Positions 1,466 through 10,821 of a stretch of DNA of 11,651 nucleotides are shown in pieces. The position numbers were made by a program, and so were the translations under genes. Where the stretch lies: the IMG/VR virus record IMGVR_UViG_2657245006_000001. The stretch is one strand, 5' to 3'. The notes under the pieces were generated by a model, which was not told the DNA's origin, searched no databases, and saw nothing but the letters and a program-made list of their open reading frames with translations. Within the stretch, counting starts at the first letter, position 1. Every line of letters begins with the position of its first letter. This DNA comes from a virus (Duplodnaviria; Heunggongvirae; Uroviricota; Caudoviricetes).

Positions 1466-1495
1466 AGGAAAAAACAAAACCCGCCGAAGCGGGTT
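1466..1495 (-). terminator. Intrinsic terminator of the hok transcript
   Basis: On the minus strand the transcript reads AACCCGC-TTCG-GCGGGTT followed by TTGTTTTTT: 7-bp GC-rich stem, 4-nt loop and U-run (plus 1478-1495 stem-loop, 1467-1477 A-run), about 70 nt downstream of the hok stop. Confidence 0.7.
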
Positions 1496-1563
1496 ACGTG
1501 CGGGTGCGTTGAGGATGCCTGACACATCAGAGGTGGCGAGGGATTTCTCCCCCGCCAGGTCTC

Positions 1564-1719
1564 TTACTCCTCAGGTTCGTAAGCTGTGAAGACAGCGACC
1601 TCCGTCTGGCCGGTTCGGATTCGTACCTCGCAGAGGTCTTTCCTCGTTACCAGTGCCGTCACTATGACGGTTAAACAGATGACGATCAGGGCGATTAACA
1701 TCGCCTTTTGCTGCTTCAT
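1564..1719 (-). CDS. hok: Hok/Gef-family type I toxin, 51 aa
   Basis: Hand translation gives MKQQKAMLIALIVICLTVIVTALVTRKDLCEVRIRTGQTEVAVFTAYEPEE: one N-terminal transmembrane helix and the conserved Hok periplasmic tail with Cys. AAGGAG lies 9 nt upstream of the ATG at 1719. Not in the ORF track because it is under 60 aa. Recalled as near-identical to HokD (RelF). Confidence 0.85.
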   Translation of the reverse strand: MKQQKAMLIALIVICLTVIVTALVTRKDLCEVRIRTGQTEVAVFTAYEPEE

Positions 1720-1775
1720 AGCCTGCTTCTCCTTGACCTTTCGGTCCGTAAGAGGCTAATCTCTATGTGTCGCAT
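1716..1775 (-). CDS. Mok-like leader ORF (19 aa) whose stop overlaps the hok start codon
   Basis: ATG at 1775..1773 opens MRHIEISLLRTERSRRSRL. Its TGA (1718..1716) overlaps the hok ATG (1719..1717). Resembles the mok/hok coupling arrangement but is much shorter than plasmid R1 mok; Shine-Dalgarno is weak. Confidence 0.3.
   Translation of the reverse strand: MRHIEISLLRTERSRRSRL
1733..1762 (+). promoter_or_regulatory. Candidate Sok-type antisense promoter facing into the hok leader
   Basis: TTGACC (1733-1738), 18-nt spacer, TAATCT (1757-1762) on the plus strand. A transcript starting near 1769 would be antisense to the leader-ORF initiation region (start 1775). A hairpin GCGTC-ttgcag-GACGC (1801-1816) flanked by direct TAATGTTAA repeats lies downstream. 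Confidence 0.3.
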
Positions 1776-1977
1776 AGATATGGCCTCAGATTAATGTTAA
1801 GCGTCTTGCAGGACGCGTAATGTTAACTGGGGCTTTTCTCTATCTGCCTTTTGGTGTTCATGCCTGAGACAGATAGCCTCAAGCACCCGCAGTCATTCTA
1901 CTTAACTAAGATTTCCCCGCAAACCGTTTTTGTCCGGCACAGTAAATATCCAACTAAACCAATGGCGTTCGCTGTAT

Positions 1978-2157
1978 TTACCGCCAGTATTCAATGCACA
2001 TGACCGCCATGAACACCCCTAAAAAAAGGGCATTTATATATCCAAATATTAATATCAAAACATCAACTTTTTCCATATACCTTGCTGTGAAGATGATGGG
2101 CATACATGATACGAACAACCAGAACGCAACAAACAAAAACTGCAATGCGTTTTTCAT
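1978..2157 (-). CDS. Small membrane protein, 59 aa, two predicted transmembrane helices, in an AT-rich island
   Basis: ORF-track ORF 1978..2196 trimmed to the ATG at 2157..2155, which has AGGAGG 4 nt upstream. Product MKNALQFLFVAFWLFVSCMPIIFTARYMEKVDVLILIFGYINALFLGVFMAVMCIEYWR has two hydrophobic stretches. Sampled lines here hand-count to about 32-37% GC against roughly 50% for flanking genes. Confidence 0.55.
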   Translation of the reverse strand: MKNALQFLFVAFWLFVSCMPIIFTARYMEKVDVLILIFGYINALFLGVFMAVMCIEYWR

Positions 2158-2327
2158 TATTCCTCCTACAATCAATGTGCAATTACATTTAAACACACCT
2201 CAATTTGGCCGGACATATAAATATCTAAACCAGAAAAAATCACTTACATAGCGTTACAAACTCTTTAGTCTAAATATTCATCGTAAAACATTCCCCATAC
2301 TTATCAGCCCGTTCTGCGCCAGGTAGC

Positions 2328-2644
2328 TCATTGCCTTATCTGGGAATCTGTAATCAGGTTTCCGGATGCTGGTGGATTTTCGCGTTTTAGTTGTTCATAA
2401 AAGTGCACAGCTTTAACCAGTTCTTCTGATGTAACCGGGACTGGCGGGGCAGTGAATAAGGCCTGAATTTCATAGTTCGGCCTGTCGTTACAATCCTCTT
2501 TTTTCGGTACATATTTCCAGTCACCAGACCACTACTTCCCCTGAAAGTCCGTAACGCCTTTTTTTTCACGTAGCGATATCGCCATGCCACTGTTTTTGCT
2601 TGCCCCGCCGTTTCATGCCCTTCCTGATAATTAACCTCGCTCAT
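2328..2644 (-). pseudogene. Disrupted small gene: reading frame breaks between an A8 and an A6 tract
   Basis: Frame 1 from the ATG at 2644 gives the 85-aa track ORF with odd basic composition. A different frame gives a protein-like tail (...EIQALFTAPPVPVTSEELVKAVHFYEQLKRENPPASGNLITDSQIRQ) running to a TGA at 2328-2330, past the frame-1 stop. That frame contains an in-frame TAG (2532-2534) and an upstream ATG at 2585. The A8 run is plus T8 at 2559-2566. Confidence 0.3.
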
Positions 2645-2817
2645 TCATCGCCCCACTCATCACAATATGCTTCGACCGGAGTTTTTCCTGCTTCATAATC
2701 ATCACGCCATGCTTCAGCATCAGCAGCACTGCCACCACGTAACTCTGCATAGTCCATTAACAGTTCATGCCATTCTTCAAAACTGACGTTGTATTTAGTT
2801 GAACCAAAATCAGCCAT
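2641..2817 (-). CDS. Small acidic protein, 58 aa
   Basis: Hand translation gives MADFGSTKYNVSFEEWHELLMDYAELRGGSAADAEAWRDDYEAGKTPVEAYCDEWGDE. Its ATG overlaps the stop of the upstream 60-aa gene by 8 nt (ATGGCTGA), and its TGA overlaps the next ATG (ATGA). Not in the ORF track because it is under 60 aa. Confidence 0.5.
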   Translation of the reverse strand: MADFGSTKYNVSFEEWHELLMDYAELRGGSAADAEAWRDDYEAGKTPVEAYCDEWGDE

Positions 2818-2992
2818 TTTGTTCTTCCTCTTCGTCTTTTATTTCGTGATATGAGTAATTGCAGTAGTTAAAGAAAATATCTTTTGCTTCGTCATGTATT
2901 TCATCAGGCGTCGCATCATCATCCACTTCGAATTCATCCTCGAAATCTCCACCGGCTATTCCCGTTTCAATAATTATTTTAAACTTTCGCAT
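2810..2992 (-). CDS. Small highly acidic protein, 60 aa
   Basis: ATG at 2992..2990; product MRKFKIIIETGIAGGDFEDEFEVDDDATPDEIHDEAKDIFFNYCNYSYHEIKDEEEEQNG with a very acidic C-terminal half. Preceded on the mRNA by GGAGG, then a hairpin, then 7 nt. Confidence 0.55.
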   Translation of the reverse strand: MRKFKIIIETGIAGGDFEDEFEVDDDATPDEIHDEAKDIFFNYCNYSYHEIKDEEEEQNG

Positions 2993-2999
2993 TTAACTA

Positions 3000-3015
3000 C
3001 CGCCCTTTCGGGCGG
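3000..3015 (-). promoter_or_regulatory. GNRA-tetraloop hairpin between the Shine-Dalgarno and start codon of the 60-aa gene
   Basis: Minus-strand RNA reads GGAGG (3020..3016), then CCGCCC-GAAA-GGGCGG (3015..3000), then UAGUUAA, then AUG (2992). The loop is GAAA only on the minus-strand transcript (UUUC on the other strand). No U-tract follows, so it is not a terminator. Confidence 0.4.
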
Positions 3016-3085
3016 CCTCCTGATGTTCTGAGGGTGCAGAAATCCCTCCGGTTAAGGATTAAATTTTTAACAGAGCTAAATTTAA

Positions 3086-3442
3086 TTATTCAGTTCTGGA
3101 TTTTGTCGCCCTGCGTATCCGCGCTTTCGCGTTACGCTCAATCTGAATTAGCTTTTCTATATTTTTTCGCCTTTCCCGCTCCTCCTGACGCAAGAGCCTT
3201 ACATCATCTGCCAGTCTGGTTTCTCTTTTCGCCACAGAGAGCATCCAGTCAAATGGCTCCACAACTGCACCGCAGATTTTACAGCGGACCTGACGCTCTT
3301 TTTCGTCAACCCGGACAGAGGCGTGATGACAATATGGTCTTTCCGATGGCTCATAAAGAAAATTAACCTGATTACGAGGGTCATCCTCTTTTACCGGAAA
3401 TAAAACGATATTGCTTAACTCATCCTCTGGTTTTATTTCCAT
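3086..3442 (-). CDS. Hypothetical protein, 118 aa, Cys/His cluster and basic coiled-coil-like C-terminus
   Basis: Preferred start is the ATG at 3442..3440 with AGGAG 6 nt upstream (MEIKPEDELSN...). The track ORF extends to a GTG at 3499 directly after the upstream stop, a possible alternative. Motif YCHH...RCKICG, then an RE/K-rich tail. Confidence 0.55.
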   Translation of the reverse strand: MEIKPEDELSNIVLFPVKEDDPRNQVNFLYEPSERPYCHHASVRVDEKERQVRCKICGAVVEPFDWMLSVAKRETRLADDVRLLRQEERERRKNIEKLIQIERNAKARIRRATKSRTE

Positions 3443-3499
3443 GCTCCTCTCCTTTGATGCGAATGCCAGCGGTAATTGAAGCCTGATAGCTAATTTCAC

Positions 3500-5848: not shown

Positions 5849-6487
5849 ATGAGCAAGCAAACTATATCTGAACGCATAACCCAACGTATGCATGCGCTAA
5901 ACCTGAAAGGCAAAGACCTTGTCAATGGCACTGGCGCATCAAAAGGCTCCGTAAGTCAATGGATGAACGGTGGAGGAGCGCCGTCCTCGCGTTACATAAG
6001 TTCACTGGCAAAAATATTGAAAGTAAACGAAAATTGGCTTCTTAATGGAGGAGAGTTAAATACAGGTGATTCGCTTGATCTATCTTTACCGCCGATAAAA
6101 ACGGTTCCGCTACTATCACTTCAGCAGGCAGCAAGCTGGAGTGATTATATGAAAAATTCCTCAATAACCTCTTGTGTGCAGCTTGTCGGAGAAATCCCGG
6201 TCAATACCTTTGCAGTTGTTCTAGAGAGTGACAGTATGTCAACATCTGGTGGGGGAGTTTCCATCCCAAATGGTTCAACAGTTTTTGTTGATCCCGATCG
6301 AACCGTACAACCAGGAAATATTGTCCTTGCCTTACCCAAAGGGACCACAACACCTGTCATTCGTAAACTGGAGATAGAAGGGCCGGATATTCTTTTAGTC
6401 CCCACGAATCCTCGCTACCCTTCAATTATGCTGGATGATCTATCTTGCATATTGGGCGTATGCTTTAAAATTCAACAAGATATTTAA
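5849..6487 (+). CDS. cI: CI-like prophage repressor, 212 aa: N-terminal XRE-type HTH plus C-terminal S24 (LexA-like) autopeptidase domain
   Basis: ATG at 5849, TAA at 6485-6487. N-terminal HTH (ISERITQRMHALNLKGKDLVNGTGASKGSVSQWMNG). C-terminal domain has the Ser nucleophile context ESDSM and a downstream Lys (VIRKLEIEG), as in LexA and lambda CI. Confidence 0.85.
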   Translation: MSKQTISERITQRMHALNLKGKDLVNGTGASKGSVSQWMNGGGAPSSRYISSLAKILKVNENWLLNGGELNTGDSLDLSLPPIKTVPLLSLQQAASWSDYMKNSSITSCVQLVGEIPVNTFAVVLESDSMSTSGGGVSIPNGSTVFVDPDRTVQPGNIVLALPKGTTTPVIRKLEIEGPDILLVPTNPRYPSIMLDDLSCILGVCFKIQQDI

Positions 6488-6600: not shown

Positions 6601-6779
6601 TCATTCATTCCCTCACCCCATCCTACAGAATGCAGGGCAATACTTCGAGTTACCAGGCAGTGGTCAGGGGTTAAGTAGCCAGCCCGAGGCGTAAGAACAT
6701 GACGGCAGGGTTCAACTTTAATAACTATGCAGCAGGTTTTTGTTCCGCTACCCCGGCGTTAAGGGGAAATGAGGTCAGC

Positions 6780-6935
6780 ATGGATACTATCGATCTTGGC
6801 AACAACGAATCTCTGGTGTACGGCGTGTTTCCAAACCAGGACGGCACCTTCACCGCAATGACGTATACCAAAAGCAAAACGTTTAAAACCGAAAATGGTG
6901 CCCGTCGCTGGCTGGAAAGAAACTCAGGTGAGTGA
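6780..6935 (+). CDS. Small hypothetical protein, 51 aa (alternative start at 6699 gives 78 aa)
   Basis: ATG at 6780 with GAGG 5 nt upstream; the ATG at 6699 has GAGG 9 nt upstream. Product MDTIDLGNNESLVYGVFPNQDGTFTAMTYTKSKTFKTENGARRWLERNSGE. Possibly YdaF-like by size and position (recalled, unverified). Confidence 0.5.
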   Translation: MDTIDLGNNESLVYGVFPNQDGTFTAMTYTKSKTFKTENGARRWLERNSGE

Positions 6936-6936
6936 T

Positions 6937-7065
6937 ATGGATTTTGACACAATCATGGAAAAGGCTTACGAAGAATACTTCGAAGGCCTTGCCGAAGGCG
7001 AAGAAGCTCACAGCTTCAACGAATTTAAACAGGCGCTTTCCAGTTCGGCAAAATCTAACGGCTGA
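6937..7065 (+). CDS. Small acidic hypothetical protein, 42 aa
   Basis: ATG at 6937, one nucleotide after the upstream TGA, with AGGTGAG upstream. Product MDFDTIMEKAYEEYFEGLAEGEEAHSFNEFKQALSSSAKSNG, stop at 7063-7065. The track ORF 6932..7141 is in another frame and looks spurious. Confidence 0.45.
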   Translation: MDFDTIMEKAYEEYFEGLAEGEEAHSFNEFKQALSSSAKSNG

Positions 7066-7094
7066 TAAGCGAAACAGCACCGCGAGGAATCAGT

Positions 7095-7313
7095 ATGCAG
7101 AAACGAGAACCCGTCATCATCGCGCCAGACTATACCGATGATGAACTTTATGAGTGGATGCGCCAGAAAATTAATGCAGCGCAGGATCTGAAATGGGCCA
7201 ATGAAGCCAGGGCTAAGCAGGCTGAAAATCTGTCCGCTCTGGAGCAGGATATCACCAATCTGGAAAAAGCAGCGGCATTAAGCATTGCCAGAATGATTAC
7301 ATACCCGCGTTAA
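7095..7313 (+). CDS. Hypothetical protein, 72 aa, probably helical
   Basis: ATG at 7095 with GAGG 7 nt upstream; TAA at 7311-7313. No recognisable family. Confidence 0.6.
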   Translation: MQKREPVIIAPDYTDDELYEWMRQKINAAQDLKWANEARAKQAENLSALEQDITNLEKAAALSIARMITYPR

Positions 7314-7668
7314 TAGCTAACCAACGAAGCTAAGGTTGGTAATTAAGGAGTTCTCCACGGGTGAGGTGGAGTGCGTGCGCCGGACACGGGTGAGCATCCG
7401 GCACTGACAGTTTACTGAAAGGATATTTCCCTGAAAAGTCAGACCATAACGCGAAAGCGCACGGCGAGGTAGCTGGTTCATAGATAGCCTGTCGTTAAAT
7501 TTTCGTCGACCGTGCGCTTCCGGTTGTGGCAACCCGCGAAATGGTGCGGCGGTAAGTATGGCGGGGTTATTTCTTCCCCGTTGAGGACACCGGGTTGTCA
7601 GGTTGACCATACGCTTAAGTGACAACCCCGCTGCAACGCCCTCTGTTATCAATTTTCTGGTGACGTTT
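7314..7668 (+). other. GC-rich structured non-coding block with no ORF (candidate structured RNA, regulatory element or gene remnant)
   Basis: All three plus frames are full of stops; the only minus ORF (7317..7652) starts at a non-ATG codon and is Arg-rich. Perfect stems: 7455-7464 with 7510-7519 (10 bp), 7592-7600 with 7620-7628 (9 bp), 7379-7384 with 7397-7402, 7320-7325 with 7335-7340. CACGGGTGAG repeated at 7356 and 7385. A sampled line hand-counts to about 60% GC. Confidence 0.3.
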
Positions 7669-7711
7669 GGCGGTATCAGTTTTACTCCGTGACTGCTCTG
7701 CCGCCCTTTTT
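7669..7711 (+). terminator. Candidate intrinsic terminator at the end of the structured block
   Basis: GGCGG (7669-7673) pairs with CCGCC (7701-7705); an imperfect inner stem extends the hairpin; T-run at 7707-7711 follows. A U-tract exists only for the plus strand. Confidence 0.4.
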
Positions 7712-7880
7712 AAAGTGAATTTTGTGATGTGGTGAATGCGGCTGAGCGCACGCGGAACAGTTAAAACCAAAAACAGTGTTATGGGTGGATTCTCTGTATC
7801 CGGCGTTAATTGTTAACTGGTTAACGTCACCTGGAGGCACCAGGCACTGCATCACAAAATTCATTGTTGAGGACGCGATA

Positions 7881-8069
7881 ATGAAAACGTTATTACCAAA
7901 CGTTAATACGTCTGAAGGTTGTTTTGAAATTGGTGTCACTATCAGTAACCCAGTATTTACTGAAGATGCCATTAACAAGAGAAAACAAGAACGGGAGCTA
8001 TTAAATAAAATATGCATTGTTTCAATGCTGGCTCGTTTACGTCTGATGCCAAAAGGATGTGCACAATGA
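7881..8069 (+). CDS. Small hypothetical protein, 62 aa
   Basis: ATG at 7881 with GAGGA 7 nt upstream; its stop overlaps the next ATG (ATGA at 8066-8069). Product MKTLLPNVNTSEGCFEIGVTISNPVFTEDAINKRKQERELLNKICIVSMLARLRLMPKGCAQ. Confidence 0.5.
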   Translation: MKTLLPNVNTSEGCFEIGVTISNPVFTEDAINKRKQERELLNKICIVSMLARLRLMPKGCAQ

Positions 8070-8257
8070 ATTCAGCATTTGTGCTTGTTCTGACAGTTTT
8101 TCTTGTTTCCGGAGAGCCAGTTGATATTGCAGTCAGTGTTCACAGGACAATGCAGGAGTGTATGACTGCAGCAACCGAACAGAAAATTCCCGGTAACTGT
8201 TACCCGGTCGATAAAGTTATTCACCAGGATAATATCGAAATCCCGGCAGGTCTTTAA
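8066..8257 (+). CDS. Small protein, 63 aa, with N-terminal signal peptide or membrane anchor
   Basis: ATG at 8066, coupled to the upstream gene. Product MNSAFVLVLTVFLVSGEPVDIAVSVHRTMQECMTAATEQKIPGNCYPVDKVIHQDNIEIPAGL; hydrophobic N-terminus, three Cys in the soluble part. Confidence 0.5.
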   Translation: MNSAFVLVLTVFLVSGEPVDIAVSVHRTMQECMTAATEQKIPGNCYPVDKVIHQDNIEIPAGL

Positions 8258-8349
8258 AACAGTTCCGTAATAAATATCCGGTTTCATTCTTATATGCCAG
8301 CAATGGCAGGGATTTGTTCATCCTTAAATCTGTCATGAGGTTAAAACAA

Positions 8350-10821
8350 ATGAGTAAAGTCTTTATTTGCGCCGCTATTCCTGACGAACTGGCAACAAGG
8401 GAAGAAGGCGCTGTGGCTGTAGCCACAGCCATTGAAGCTGGCGACGAACGCCGTGCTCGAGCAAAATTTCACTGGCAATTCCTGGAACATTATCCGGCTG
8501 CTCAGGACTGCGCTTATAAATTTATTGTCTGCGAGGATAAACCTGGCATACCCCGCCCTGCCCTCGATTCATGGGATGCTGAATATATGCAGGAAAACCG
8601 CTGGGATGAGGAGTCTGCTTCTTTTGTCCCGGTTGAGACTGAATCCGATCCGATGAACGTCACTTTTGACAAGCTGGCCCCTGAAGTACAGAACGCTGTC
8701 ATGGTTAAGTTCGACACATGTGAAAACATCACCGTTGATATGGTTATTAGCGCACAGGAATTGTTGCAGGAAGACATGGCAACATTCGACGGACATATCG
8801 TTGAAGCGTTGATGAAAATGCCAGAAGTTAACGCCATGTATCCGGAGCTTAAGTTGCACGCCATTGGGTGGGTTAAGCATAAATGTATTCCTGGTGCTAA
8901 ATGGCCCGAAATTCAGGCAGAGATGCGCATCTGGAAAAAACGTCGCGAAGGTGAACGCAAGGAAACCGGAAAATACACGTCTGTTGTTGATCTCGCCCGC
9001 GCCAGAGCCAATCAACAGTACACTGAAAATTCAACAGGAAAAATCAGCCCGGTCATTGCTGCCATTCATCGCGAATACAAGCAGACATGGAAAACACTGG
9101 ATGACGAACTGGCCTACGCTCTCTGGCCTGGTGATGTGGATGCCGGAAACATTGACGGCAGCATCCATCGCTGGGCAAAAAATGAAGTTATCGACAACGA
9201 CCGCGAAGACTGGAAGCGTATCTCGGCATCAATGCGCAAACAGCCTGATGCCCTTCGCTACGACCGCCAAACTATTTTTGGCCTTGTCCGTGAGCGTCCG
9301 ATCGACATTCACAAAGATCCCGTAGCACTGAACAAATATATCTGCGAATACCTGACGACAAAGGGCGTGTTTGAGAATGAAGAAACAGACCTGGGCACTG
9401 TTGATGTTCTCCAGTCATCAGAAACACAAACTGATGCAGTGGAAACTGAGGTATCTGATATCCCAAAAAATGAAACCGCGCCGGAAGCTGAACCATCTGT
9501 AGAGCGTGAGGGGCCGTTCTATTTCCTCTTCGCAGATAAGGACGGAGAAAAATACGGTCGCGCAAACAAACTTTCTGGTCTGGATAAGGCACTGGCTGCT
9601 GGCGCCACTGAAATCACAAAAGAAGAATATTTTGCCCGAAAAAATGGCACATACACGGGCTTACCGCAAAATGTAGATACCGCTGAAGATTCAGAACAAC
9701 CAGAGCCGATAAAAGTTACCGCTGACGAAGTAAACAAAATTATGCAGGCAGCCAATATCATCCAGCCTGACGCCGATAAGTTGCTTGCTGCATCACGTGG
9801 TGAATTTGTTGAAGGGATTAGTGACCCGAATGATCCGAAATGGGTTAAGGGGATCCAGACCCGCGATTCTGTGAACCAGAACCAGCATGAATCGGAACGG
9901 AACTACCAAAAAGCGGAACAAAACAGCCCAAATGCGTTACAAAACGAGCCAGAAACGAAACAGCCTGAATCAGTGGCGCAACAGGAAGTGGAAAAAGTCT
10001 GCACCGCCTGCGGTCAGACCGGCGGCGGCAACTGCCCTGATTGTGGCGCGGTAATGGGCGACGCAACATACCAGGAAACATTCGATGAAGAGTATCAGAT
10101 TGAAGTTCAGGAAGATGATCCGGAGGAAATGGAAGGCGCTGAACATCCACACAAGGAGAACACTGGCGGCAATCAGCATCACGATAGCGATAATGAAACT
10201 GGCGAGACGGCAGATCACTCAATTAAGGTGAACGGTCATCAAGAAATCACATCCACCAGCAGGACGTGTGACCATCTAATGATCGACCTTGAAACCATGG
10301 GAAAAAATCCTGATGCCCCGATCATCTCAATAGGTGCAATATTTTTCGATCCGCAAACCGGAGATATGGGACCGGAATTTAGTAAGACTATCGATCTGGA
10401 AACTGCTGGCGGAGTCATTGATCGGGACACCATTAAATGGTGGCTTAAGCAATCACGCGAAGCGCAATCTGCCATTATGACCGATGAAATCCCGTTAGAT
10501 GATGCACTGTTACAATTGTGGGAATTTATCGACGAAAACTCCGGTGAATTTTTTGTTCAGGTCTGGGGAAATGGAGCCAACTTCGACAACACGATTTTGC
10601 GCCGTTCATACGAACGGCAGGGGATCCCCTGCCCGTGGCGTTACTACAACGATCGCGATGTACGCACAATCGTTGAGCTGGGGAAAGCCATAGACTTCGA
10701 TGCCAGAACGGCTATTCCATTCGAAGGTGAGCGCCATAATGCACTTGATGACGCCCGTTACCAGGCAAAATACGTTTCAGTTATCTGGCAAAAACTGATC
10801 CCGAGTCAGGCTGATTCTTAA
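8350..10821 (+). CDS. Large early-left protein, about 823 aa: long N-terminal region of unknown function, acidic linker, C4 zinc ribbon, C-terminal DEDDh 3'-5' exonuclease domain
   Basis: Preferred ATG at 8350 with GAGG upstream (the track ORF starts at a TTG at 8314); TAA at 10819-10821. C-terminal roughly 190 aa (from about 10264) carries DEDDh motifs: MIDLET, WGNGANFD, HNALDDA. Zinc ribbon CTACGQTGGGNCPDCG near 10000-10046. Possibly related to proteins annotated as exodeoxyribonuclease VIII in prophages (recalled, unverified). Confidence 0.8.
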   Translation: MSKVFICAAIPDELATREEGAVAVATAIEAGDERRARAKFHWQFLEHYPAAQDCAYKFIVCEDKPGIPRPALDSWDAEYMQENRWDEESASFVPVETESDPMNVTFDKLAPEVQNAVMVKFDTCENITVDMVISAQELLQEDMATFDGHIVEALMKMPEVNAMYPELKLHAIGWVKHKCIPGAKWPEIQAEMRIWKKRREGERKETGKYTSVVDLARARANQQYTENSTGKISPVIAAIHREYKQTWKTLDDELAYALWPGDVDAGNIDGSIHRWAKNEVIDNDREDWKRISASMRKQPDALRYDRQTIFGLVRERPIDIHKDPVALNKYICEYLTTKGVFENEETDLGTVDVLQSSETQTDAVETEVSDIPKNETAPEAEPSVEREGPFYFLFADKDGEKYGRANKLSGLDKALAAGATEITKEEYFARKNGTYTGLPQNVDTAEDSEQPEPIKVTADEVNKIMQAANIIQPDADKLLAASRGEFVEGISDPNDPKWVKGIQTRDSVNQNQHESERNYQKAEQNSPNALQNEPETKQPESVAQQEVEKVCTACGQTGGGNCPDCGAVMGDATYQETFDEEYQIEVQEDDPEEMEGAEHPHKENTGGNQHHDSDNETGETADHSIKVNGHQEITSTSRTCDHLMIDLETMGKNPDAPIISIGAIFFDPQTGDMGPEFSKTIDLETAGGVIDRDTIKWWLKQSREAQSAIMTDEIPLDDALLQLWEFIDENSGEFFVQVWGNGANFDNTILRRSYERQGIPCPWRYYNDRDVRTIVELGKAIDFDARTAIPFEGERHNALDDARYQAKYVSVIWQKLIPSQADS

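What the first reader, a model, noticed from the sequence alone, without database searches (positions are those of the whole stretch)
1978..2327. AT-rich island encoding a 59-aa two-helix membrane protein with a near-consensus ribosome-binding site
GC falls to roughly one third here against about half in neighbouring genes, which suggests a horizontally acquired insertion. The protein has two hydrophobic helices and sits next to the hok/sok locus. It could be a small membrane toxin, a superinfection-exclusion factor or a holin-like protein.
Basis: partly seen in the sequence, partly recalled or inferred. Interest (0 to 1): 0.5.

Follow-up and report, generated by a model that had tools for sequence, protein, structure and literature searches.

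The report
Small prophage membrane-hairpin gene cassette
The low-GC patch holds a real but uncharacterised gene for a 59-residue, two-helix membrane protein, carried on a ~350-bp swappable cassette just upstream of the hok/sok toxin locus of a Qin-type E. coli prophage; it is a modest, mostly ordinary find whose function is still unknown.

Summary
A minus-strand ORF (ATG 2157, stop 1978-1980) encodes 59 aa with two hydrophobic helices and an AGGAGG site 4 nt upstream. It sits in the lowest-GC 350 nt of the window (36.6% vs 48%), 14-18 nt upstream of the inferred hok -35 hexamer.

It is a real gene. An exhaustive HMMER search found one paralog, also 59 aa and 41% identical, in a decayed Rac-site remnant in 1045 of 5426 E. 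coli genomes. The two align without gaps, codon-position identity is 0.58/0.73/0.47, and dN/dS is about 0.19. All 17 alignment gaps lie outside the ORF.

The family occurs only in E. coli/Shigella and matches no Pfam, PHROG, NCBIfam or PADLOC model. RefSeq annotates it in none of the three loci inspected.

The ~345-bp cassette (about 1936-2280) is present in 15 of 80 prophages with an identical HokD. In others the slot holds a 27-aa single-helix ORF or unrelated DNA.

Foreign origin is only partly supported: GC3 is 0.51, so the low GC comes mainly from hydrophobic codons.

Function is untested. A holin is unlikely and a type I toxin has no support. A membrane-acting accessory protein is my best guess. 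One oddity remains: all 13 within-lineage polymorphisms are nonsynonymous.

The parts
1978..2157 (-). Coding sequence of the 59-aa two-helix membrane protein (MKNALQFLFVAFWLFVSCMPIIFTARYMEKVDVLILIFGYINALFLGVFMAVMCIEYWR), stop codon included
   Evidence: ORF list and sequence. Hydropathy. AF2 hairpin. Gapless 41%-identical paralog with dN/dS ~0.19. Intact in 107 of 108 independently sampled copies.
2162..2167 (-). Shine-Dalgarno AGGAGG, 4 nt upstream of the ATG. Position 2164 is A/G polymorphic (53 A : 55 G) among related copies.
   Evidence: Sequence. Polymorphism table.
2158..2292 (-). Leader of the cassette. The stretch homologous to the paralog locus begins at 2292. No convincing sigma-70 promoter was found. 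It overlaps the gene remnant 2281-2361 at 2281-2292.
   Evidence: Local alignment of window 2292->1940 with L209 5856-6217: 61% identity, E=3e-19. Promoter scans.
1936..1977 (-). 3' tail of the cassette. No terminator was found. It ends 14-18 nt before the inferred hok -35 hexamer.
1936..2280 (-). The whole ~345-bp mosaic cassette. In L249, L218 and L261 the same slot holds a 75-nt segment instead.
   Evidence: Homology breakpoints at window 1935 and 2278. Sequences at the junctions.
2281..2361 (-). Remnant 3' end of the upstream '...GLISVEDILR'-type gene (translates KPDYRFPDKAMSYLAQNGLISMGNVLR*). It is part of a frameshifted pseudogene that extends to 2644.
   Evidence: RefSeq marks the stretch equivalent to window 2328-2644 as a pseudogene, 'frameshifted; internal stop'.
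2021..2027 (.). A7/T7 homopolymer inside codons 44-46, the site of frameshift variants in databases
   Evidence: 1 of 108 copies has a deletion here. Truncated protein clusters P0019, P0021, P0024 and P0025 diverge at this point.
1994..2251 (+). Opposite-strand 85-aa ORF, annotated 'hornerin' or 'hypothetical' in some phage records; judged spurious
   Evidence: Annotations. No family hit. Two stop-creating variants in the population sample. Two stops in the same frame of the paralog.
1717..1888 (-). hok mRNA 5' region with mok/sok (context, not part of the cassette)
   Evidence: Rfam RF01794, 106.7 bits.
1895..1922 (-). Inferred hok promoter: -35 TTGCGG at 1922-1917, -10 TAGAAT at 1900-1895
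   Evidence: My reading of the sequence relative to the Rfam model start at 1888. This is inference.
1564..1719 (-). hokD coding sequence (context)
   Evidence: Pfam PF01848, E=1.2e-23. RefSeq names it hokD.

Best explanation
Shown:
- Window 2157-1978(-) is a genuine protein-coding gene for a 59-residue protein that is almost entirely two hydrophobic helices joined by a 7-residue loop.
- It belongs to a two-member family restricted to E. coli/Shigella.
- It rides on a ~345-bp cassette (about 1936-2280). The cassette occupies the slot between the stop codon of a nin-region gene, here decayed, and the hok promoter of a Qin-type lambdoid prophage.
- Related prophages carry a 27-aa single-helix ORF or unrelated DNA in that slot.

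Inferred:
- The protein inserts into the inner membrane as an N-in/C-in hairpin. Basic residues sit at the N terminus and R59 at the C terminus, and the loop is acidic in the paralog.
- It is translated from its own strong Shine-Dalgarno on the early-right (cro to Q) transcript after induction, possibly also from a weak promoter in its leader.
- It acts inside the membrane by self-association or by binding the transmembrane helices of a host protein. The conserved faces are W13-S17-P20/I21-T24 in helix 1 and G39-N42/A43-G47 (a small-xxx-small zipper with a buried Asn) in helix 2.

My committed guess is an accessory, moron-like membrane modulator (exclusion or host-membrane takeover), not a lysis gene.
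For: Coding:
- Exhaustive phmmer over 1.84 billion representatives found one paralog (P0037/P0043). It has the same length and 41% identity, E=3.7e-9.
- The alignment is gapless with the same start and stop. Codon-position identity is 0.58/0.73/0.47, pN is 0.33 against pS 0.72, and dN/dS is ~0.19. No other frame aligns better than 18 of 59.
- All 17 gap positions of the 366-column DNA alignment fall outside the ORF.
- Site diversity in the ORF is lower than in flanks in both lineages: 10/177 vs 57/376, p=0.001; and 3/180 vs 70/1124, p=0.009.
- The ORF is intact in 107 of 108 copies sampled through a leader pattern.
- In shuffles, an ORF with two hydrophobic segments appears in 0.5% and one with a Shine-Dalgarno in 0.4%.

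Structure:
- Hydropathy and the AF2 hairpin at pLDDT 73.
- 19 invariant residues across the two subfamilies.

Cassette:
- Present in 15 of 80 HokD-identical loci, with more than 30 alternatives.
- Breakpoints at 1935 and 2278, and a 27-aa ORF in the alternative form.
- In phage MN652886 the slot holds an unrelated 87-aa gene.

Operon context:
- All genes from the cro-like dicC to Q are on the same strand.
Against: - There is no expression evidence of any kind.
- No sigma-70 promoter of >=9/12 and no terminator were found around the gene.
- RefSeq leaves it unannotated in the loci inspected.
- All 13 within-lineage polymorphisms are nonsynonymous. That is not what recent purifying selection on a protein predicts (P ~0.02-0.055 under neutrality).
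- The Shine-Dalgarno is polymorphic (AGGAGG/AGGGGG).
- Frameshifted copies exist.
- The upstream neighbour is a pseudogene, so this stretch of the prophage is decaying.
- The functional part of the statement rests only on architecture and conserved residues.
Confidence: 0.55

Rival explanations
1. A relic gene. It once encoded a functional membrane protein, as the paralog comparison shows, but in this defective Qin-type prophage it now drifts neutrally and does nothing.
For: - 10 of 10 polymorphisms in this lineage are nonsynonymous.
- The Shine-Dalgarno is polymorphic.
- Many truncated or frameshifted database variants exist.
- The adjacent gene is a frameshifted pseudogene.
- No promoter was found.
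Against: - ORF site diversity is about a third of that in the flanks (p=0.001).
- 107 of 108 copies are intact.
- The common variants fall only at positions that also differ between the paralogs.
- The paralog in phylogroup B2 strains is the one conserved stretch in a graveyard of pseudogenes: 3 variable sites in 308 nt against ~6% in the flanks, p=3e-5.
Confidence: 0.15
2. A type I-like toxin. The small hydrophobic protein is toxic when made, and its mRNA is held in check by an unrecognised antisense or overlapping small RNA, in parallel with the neighbouring hok/sok.
For: - It is a small hydrophobic protein with a strong Shine-Dalgarno.
- It sits next to a bona fide type I locus.
- Leader and tail travel with the ORF in both paralogs.
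- The lack of synonymous polymorphism (0 of 13) could reflect a second constraint on the same nucleotides.
Against: - No Rfam family covers the cassette.
- No promoter or terminator was found on the opposite strand.
- Folding energies do not differ from shuffles: z = -1.3 sense, +0.07 antisense.
- It has two helices and 59 aa, whereas most type I toxins have one helix (my knowledge).
- It does not match Hok/Gef.
Confidence: 0.12
3. A holin or pinholin-like lysis protein with two transmembrane domains.
For: The size, the two transmembrane helices, the likely N-in/C-in topology and the small-xxx-small motif in helix 2 resemble class II holins such as the phage 21 pinholin. This is a resemblance from my own knowledge, not a test.
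Against: - It lies in the early region upstream of Q, not in a lysis cassette next to an endolysin.
- It has no charged C-terminal tail (the protein ends ...IEYWR) and no dual-start motif.
- It has no Pfam or PHROG holin hit.
- Foldseek found nothing significant.
- The paralog survives alone in a remnant with no lysis genes.
Confidence: 0.03
4. A chance ORF in an AT-rich, T-skewed non-coding spacer. T-rich DNA translates to hydrophobic residues.
For: - An ATG-ORF of >=59 aa arises in 20% of shuffles.
- The opposite strand also carries an 85-aa ORF.
- RefSeq does not call the gene.
Against: - The paralog has the same length and boundaries, a coding substitution pattern, and gaps only outside the ORF.
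- In shuffles, an ORF of >=59 aa with two hydrophobic segments appears in 0.5% and one with a Shine-Dalgarno in 0.4%.
Confidence: 0.03

Closest known systems
Class II holins / pinholins (e.g. phage 21 S21-68)
   Same: Phage-borne and about 60-70 aa. Two transmembrane helices with likely N-in/C-in topology. Small-residue (glycine-zipper-like) face in the second helix. This comparison rests on my knowledge.
   Different: No sequence or profile similarity. Not in a lysis cassette, but upstream of Q in the early operon. No charged C-terminal tail and no dual start.
Hok/Gef and other type I toxins (the neighbouring hokD/sok)
   Same: A small hydrophobic inner-membrane protein with a strong ribosome-binding site, prophage-borne and physically adjacent to hok/sok.
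   Different: Two helices instead of one. No PF01848 match. No antisense RNA signal or structured leader detected.
Small membrane superinfection-exclusion proteins and morons (T4 Imm, HK97 gp15)
   Same: Small inner-membrane proteins encoded by phages or prophages. They are present in some relatives and absent in others, and differ in composition from their neighbours (my knowledge).
   Different: No homology. No recognisable own promoter or terminator. Expression in the lysogen and any exclusion phenotype are untested.
The 27-aa ORF MTWPEAFTTAGIAMAVALVVYSICRWG, which fills the same slot in related prophages
   Same: Same position between the '...SVEDILR' gene and the hok promoter. Also a tiny, unannotated, hydrophobic membrane peptide.
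   Different: One helix, GC-rich, and translationally coupled by an ATGA overlap. It shows abundant synonymous variation (11 codons). No detectable similarity to the 59-aa protein.

Membership tests
Hok/Gef type I toxin family (PF01848) | Match to the family profile | tested here: not met
   No Pfam hit for the 59-aa protein at E<=0.1, whereas the neighbouring ORF matches at 1.2e-23.
Type I toxin-antitoxin system (generic) | A cis- or trans-encoded antisense RNA, or a structured regulatory leader, controlling the toxin mRNA | tested here: inconclusive
   No Rfam hit on the cassette. No antisense promoter or terminator. Fold z-scores are -1.3 and +0.07. Sequence signals cannot exclude an RNA.
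Type I toxin-antitoxin system (generic) | Toxicity of the small protein when expressed | not testable with these tools
   Needs an expression experiment.
Holin (class II / pinholin) | Located in the late lysis cassette, next to an endolysin and downstream of Q | tested here: not met
   The gene lies between the replication genes and Q on the early-right strand.
Holin (class II / pinholin) | Two transmembrane domains followed by a charged cytoplasmic C-terminal tail | tested here: not met
   Two helices are present, but the protein ends 4 residues after helix 2 (EYWR).
Holin (class II / pinholin) | Match to a holin profile (Pfam or PHROGs) | tested here: not met
   Zero families in Pfam and PHROGs.
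Moron (accessory gene cassette of lambdoid phages) | Present in some genomes and absent at the same junction in close relatives | tested here: met
   15 of 80 HokD-identical loci carry it. Breakpoints are at 1935 and 2278.
Moron (accessory gene cassette of lambdoid phages) | Own promoter and terminator flanking the gene | tested here: not met
   No >=9/12 sigma-70 site and no intrinsic terminator. An extended -10-like TGACATAAT exists only in the paralog leader.
Moron (accessory gene cassette of lambdoid phages) | Base composition different from neighbouring genes | tested here: inconclusive
   Overall GC is 36.6% against ~46-51% in the flanks, but GC3 is 0.51, within the 0.28-0.69 range of the neighbouring genes.
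Known anti-phage defence systems (PADLOC-DB) | Match to a defence-protein model | tested here: not met
   No hit at E<=1.
Superinfection exclusion proteins | Expressed in the lysogen and blocks infection by other phages | not testable with these tools
   Needs plating assays.

The most novel reading that the evidence does not exclude
The 59-aa hairpin family is an actively used, fast-evolving membrane effector: either a prophage exclusion or defence factor, or a new two-helix toxin with an overlapping RNA regulator. Its amino-acid-changing polymorphism (13 of 13) would then reflect diversifying selection. One copy would have been domesticated by phylogroup B2 E. coli, where it is the only conserved element in a dead prophage remnant. 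The slot upstream of hok would be a dedicated exchange site for small membrane-peptide genes.
Probability: 0.15. Interest if true: 0.55.

Novelty: new member of a known kind. Interest (0 to 1): 0.3.

Why it matters
Small membrane proteins of prophages are routinely missed. This one is absent from the RefSeq annotations inspected and from Pfam, PHROGs, NCBIfam and PADLOC. Yet the cassette DNA is in about 29% of complete E. coli genomes, and the paralog locus is in a further 19%.

Showing that it is a real, conserved gene gives a concrete candidate for tests of phage exclusion, membrane toxicity or host modulation. It also corrects a mis-annotation: the opposite-strand 'hornerin' ORF.

The analysis further shows that the junction upstream of hok is a mosaic hotspot that often carries tiny membrane-peptide genes.

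None of this overturns current understanding. It is an incremental addition to the catalogue of prophage accessory genes.

Tried and rejected
- Profile libraries: Pfam, PHROGs, NCBIfam and PADLOC gave nothing for the ORF or for the opposite-strand ORF.
- Word-indexed protein searches, with the single sequence and with a profile, found only E. coli/Shigella copies and the paralog.
- A scan of one genome per species found 3 loci, all E. coli or Shigella.
- One of those, L088 (85% identical), looked like a useful divergent copy. Its ORF carries three single-base deletions, and the whole region has 105 gap positions. I set it aside as uninformative, possibly a sequencing or assembly artefact.
- The first haplotype analysis used loci retrieved by protein match and was therefore biased. 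I discarded it in favour of samples retrieved through flanking DNA patterns.
- Foldseek against viral and PDB libraries gave only generic helical hairpins at E>=1.
- RNA folding of both strands showed no excess structure.
- Promoter and terminator scans were negative.
- Full-text literature searches for the peptide sequences found no paper. A topical search found nothing specific.
- K-12 Qin lacks the cassette, so K-12 small-protein and Ribo-seq resources do not help.
- No similarity was found between the 59-aa protein and the 27-aa alternative ORF.
- A 25-nt imperfect direct repeat (1929-1953 and 2204-2228) looked like a possible cassette boundary. It is 72% identical, I saw no matching repeat when I eyeballed the paralog sequence, and I treat it as probable chance.

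Full report
OBSERVATION

The finding is in the sequence as described. On the minus strand an ATG at 2157 opens a 59-codon frame that stops at 1980-1978. AGGAGG lies at 2167-2162, 4 nt before the ATG. A GTG at 2196 would extend the ORF to 72 aa. I prefer the ATG because the GAGG before the GTG is only 1 nt away from it, and because the ATG is the start shared with the paralog described below.

Hydropathy shows two segments, about residues 4-25 and 33-55, around the loop RYMEKVD. AlphaFold2 on a 10-sequence alignment gives helices 2-24 and 31-58 at mean pLDDT 73.

GC of 1978-2327 is 36.6% against 48.0% for the window. This is the lowest 1% of 350-nt windows. A second low patch lies at about 2740-3107.

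The neighbour is a complete hok/sok locus. Pfam HOK_GEF matches 1564-1719(-) at E=1.2e-23, and Rfam sok matches 1717-1888(-) at 106.7 bits.

CONTEXT

The window is a Qin-type lambdoid prophage. DicF lies at 7655-7706. Window 6742-9116 is 99.3% identical to the K-12 Qin ydfA-ydfE stretch. The order on the minus strand runs from the cro-like dicC through cII/YdaT-like, O-like, DUF977, small genes, the cassette, hokD, DUF968 and RusA to Q.

K-12 Qin itself lacks the cassette.

The cassette DNA is found in 1584 of 5426 complete E. coli genomes at 95-100% identity. RefSeq annotates nothing on it in the two loci I opened. Some phage GenBank records annotate the opposite-strand 85-aa ORF as 'hornerin' or 'hypothetical'. 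GenBank genomes sometimes call the ORF 'hypothetical protein' or 'putative membrane protein'.

IS IT A GENE?

Chance alone is a poor explanation. In 5000 dinucleotide shuffles of 1932-2330, an ATG-ORF of >=59 aa occurs in 20%. One with two hydrophobic segments occurs in 0.5%, and one with a Shine-Dalgarno in 0.4%.

The decisive evidence is comparative.

- Word-indexed searches found only near-identical E. coli/Shigella copies and truncated variants. One genome per species across 185,579 species gave three loci, all E. coli or Shigella.
- An exhaustive phmmer run over 1.84 billion representatives added one diverged relative, P0037/P0043. It is also exactly 59 aa and 41% identical, E=3.7e-9.
- The two coding sequences align without gaps and share start and stop positions. 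Identity by codon position is 0.58, 0.73 and 0.47. pN is 0.33 against pS 0.72, giving dN/dS of about 0.19. No other frame gives more than 18 of 59 identities, and the frame of the opposite-strand ORF has two stops in the paralog.
- At the DNA level the homology runs from window 2292 to 1940 (L209 5856-6217, 61% identity, E=3e-19). All 17 gap positions lie in the leader or tail and none in the 180 coding bases.
- A profile of both subfamilies found no third subfamily.

I conclude that this is a real protein-coding family with two members.

THE PARALOG

P0043 sits in a ~1.9-kb AT-rich remnant between ttcA with an integrase fragment and uspF. This is the Rac attachment region. It occurs in 1045 of 5426 genomes, including LF82, EC958 and ATCC 11775. 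Its annotated neighbours there are all pseudogenes, and RefSeq does not annotate the ORF.

I sampled 32 copies through a flanking DNA pattern, 31 from metagenome or viral contigs plus LF82. The stretch 5922-6229, which covers the ORF with short flanks, has 3 variable sites in 308 nt. The surrounding remnant has about 6% (p=3e-5). The ORF alone has 3/180 against 70/1124 (p=0.009). This points to constraint on the module in that lineage.

WITHIN-LINEAGE VARIATION

For the window lineage I sampled 108 copies (43 haplotypes) through a 33-nt leader pattern that is independent of the ORF.

- 107 copies are intact. One has a deletion in the T7 run.
- ORF site diversity is 10/177 against 57/376 outside it (p=0.001).
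- All 10 substitutions are nonsynonymous: V16A, M28I, V31I, I37M, Y40H, A43V, L44I, V48G, V52G and M53T. The three in the B2 paralog are nonsynonymous too.
- Under neutrality about 20-26% should be synonymous, so P(0 of 13) is about 0.02-0.055.
- The five common variants fall at positions that also differ between the paralogs. M37 and H40 are the paralog's residues.

I cannot explain the missing synonymous changes. Small numbers, diversifying selection or a second constraint on the nucleotides are all possible.

THE CASSETTE AND ITS SLOT

Among 80 viral contigs encoding an identical HokD, 15 carry the ORF. In 60 of the others, homology to the window ends at about 1900-1936, just upstream of the inferred hok promoter. 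More than 30 unrelated sequences follow, some of them AT-rich cargo.

Relative to L249, L218 and L261, homology to the window runs 3100-2369, then 2361-2278 at 71-79%, then resumes at 1935. Window 2361-2281 translates to KPDYRFPDKAMSYLAQNGLISMGNVLR*. This is the 3' end of a nin-region gene that is intact in those loci (171 aa in L249) and frameshifted here.

In those loci the 75 nt between that stop codon and the hok promoter encode MTWPEAFTTAGIAMAVALVVYSICRWG. This 27-aa single-helix ORF overlaps the upstream stop as ATGA. It is present in 15 of 80 loci. It shows synonymous-only variation at 11 codons across 9 DNA alleles, so it is very likely a real gene. It is unannotated in the one RefSeq locus I inspected. 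It is not detectably related to the 59-aa protein.

So the cassette, about 1936-2280, replaces that small gene. In phage MN652886 the slot holds an unrelated 87-aa soluble protein. Conversely, 108 of 119 copies of the cassette have the sok/mok region downstream.

IS IT FOREIGN DNA?

Only partly. The ORF's GC by codon position is 0.34, 0.27 and 0.51, with T at 54% of second positions. Neighbouring genes have GC3 of 0.28-0.69.

The low GC of the coding part therefore reflects hydrophobic amino acids, not a foreign mutational bias. The remainder is intergenic leader at 36.5%. The paralog sits in AT-rich surroundings and has GC3 of 0.34.

Mosaic presence and absence, not composition, is the sound evidence for horizontal exchange.

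HOW IT LIKELY WORKS

What is shown: a conserved 59-aa hairpin with no soluble domain. Nineteen residues are invariant across the subfamilies. They include W13, S17, C18, P20, I21, I22 and T24 in helix 1, and L36, F38, G39, N42, A43 and L44 in helix 2. G47 is nearly invariant, and the C-terminal E56, W58 and R59 are also invariant.

What is inferred:

- Topology is N-in/C-in, from K2 (R2K3 in the paralog) and R59, with an acidic loop in the paralog.
- G39-A43-G47 with N42 form a small-residue, polar face typical of tight helix packing. This suggests self-association or binding to a host membrane protein.
- I found no own promoter or terminator. Expression would then come mainly from the early-right transcript after induction, using the gene's own Shine-Dalgarno.
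- The B2 remnant lacks such an operon. Its leader contains an extended -10-like TGACATAAT, so a weak own promoter cannot be excluded.

I commit to an accessory membrane modulator, for exclusion or host-membrane takeover. I have moderate confidence in the gene and low confidence in the function.

RIVALS

- Relic gene: supported by the nonsynonymous-only polymorphism, the polymorphic Shine-Dalgarno, frameshift variants and the decaying neighbour. Opposed by the reduced diversity and the B2 conservation.
- Type I toxin: adjacency to hok and a possible extra nucleotide constraint speak for it. No RNA signal of any kind was found.
- Holin: contradicted by position, by the missing C-terminal tail and by the absence of profile hits.
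- Chance ORF: refuted by the paralog comparison.

COMPARISON AND NOVELTY

The protein works like other small phage membrane proteins and resembles pinholins only in gross architecture. It is not a member of Hok/Gef, any holin family or any PADLOC model.

Foldseek found only generic hairpins. Literature searches for the sequences found nothing.

It is a new, uncharacterised member of a familiar kind. Interest is modest, at 0.3.

Noticed in passing
L249 2206-2289 (also L218, L261, L296 ~1717-1800); absent from the window: A 27-aa single-helix ORF, MTWPEAFTTAGIAMAVALVVYSICRWG, overlaps the stop of the upstream '...SVEDILR' gene as ATGA. It fills the slot upstream of the hok promoter in 15 of 80 HokD-identical prophages. 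Eleven codons vary only synonymously across 9 DNA alleles, so it looks like a real gene. It is unannotated in the one RefSeq locus inspected.
   Followed up: partly
L209 6001-6180 (LF82: L215 ~3302-3481): A 59-aa paralog (P0043) lies in a decayed Rac-attachment-site remnant between ttcA with an integrase fragment and uspF, in 1045 of 5426 E. coli genomes. It is the only conserved stretch among pseudogenes and is unannotated in RefSeq.
   Followed up: yes
window 1900-1936: The junction just upstream of the hok promoter is a mosaic hotspot. More than 30 unrelated upstream sequences occur among 65 HokD-identical loci, and several are AT-rich cargo with membrane or unknown proteins (e.g. L274 153 aa, L242 178 aa).
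   Followed up: partly
window 1981-2157 and L209 6001-6177: All 13 within-lineage polymorphisms in the two paralogs are nonsynonymous and none is synonymous, although overall diversity is lower than in the flanks. This is unexplained.
   Followed up: partly
window 1994-2251 (+): The opposite-strand 85-aa ORF is annotated 'hornerin' (ON470612) or 'hypothetical protein' (PV340562) in phage records. Population variants create stops in it, and the paralog has stops in that frame, so it is a mis-annotation.
   Followed up: yes
window 2281-2644 (-): A frameshifted pseudogene of a nin-region gene that is intact at 171 aa in L249. Related copies differ by a 57-bp insertion or deletion near 2351-2364.
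   Followed up: partly
window 2021-2027: An A7/T7 homopolymer lies inside the ORF. Several database protein clusters (P0019, P0021, P0024, P0025) are frameshifted exactly here. These could be sequencing errors or slippage.
   Followed up: no
window 7655-7706 (+) and 7704-7913 (+): A full-length DicF sRNA (76.7 bits) is followed by a sub-threshold STnc100-like match (34.4 bits against a gathering score of 47).
   Followed up: no
window 1474-1555 (-): A sub-threshold isrK-like match (27.1 bits against a gathering score of 50) lies just downstream of hok. It overlaps the only intrinsic terminator found in the scanned region 1400-2800, at 1495-1478(-).
   Followed up: no
window 1929-1953 and 2204-2228: An imperfect 25-nt direct repeat (72% identity) has one copy at the cassette's hok-side edge and one in the leader. 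It brackets the ribosome-binding site and the ORF. I saw no matching repeat in the paralog sequence, so it may be chance.
   Followed up: partly
window 2218-2283 (-): The predicted RNA fold places a long imperfect hairpin in the leader, pairing AAUAUUUAGAC... with ...GUUUAGAUAUU. The overall fold z-score is only -1.3.
   Followed up: no
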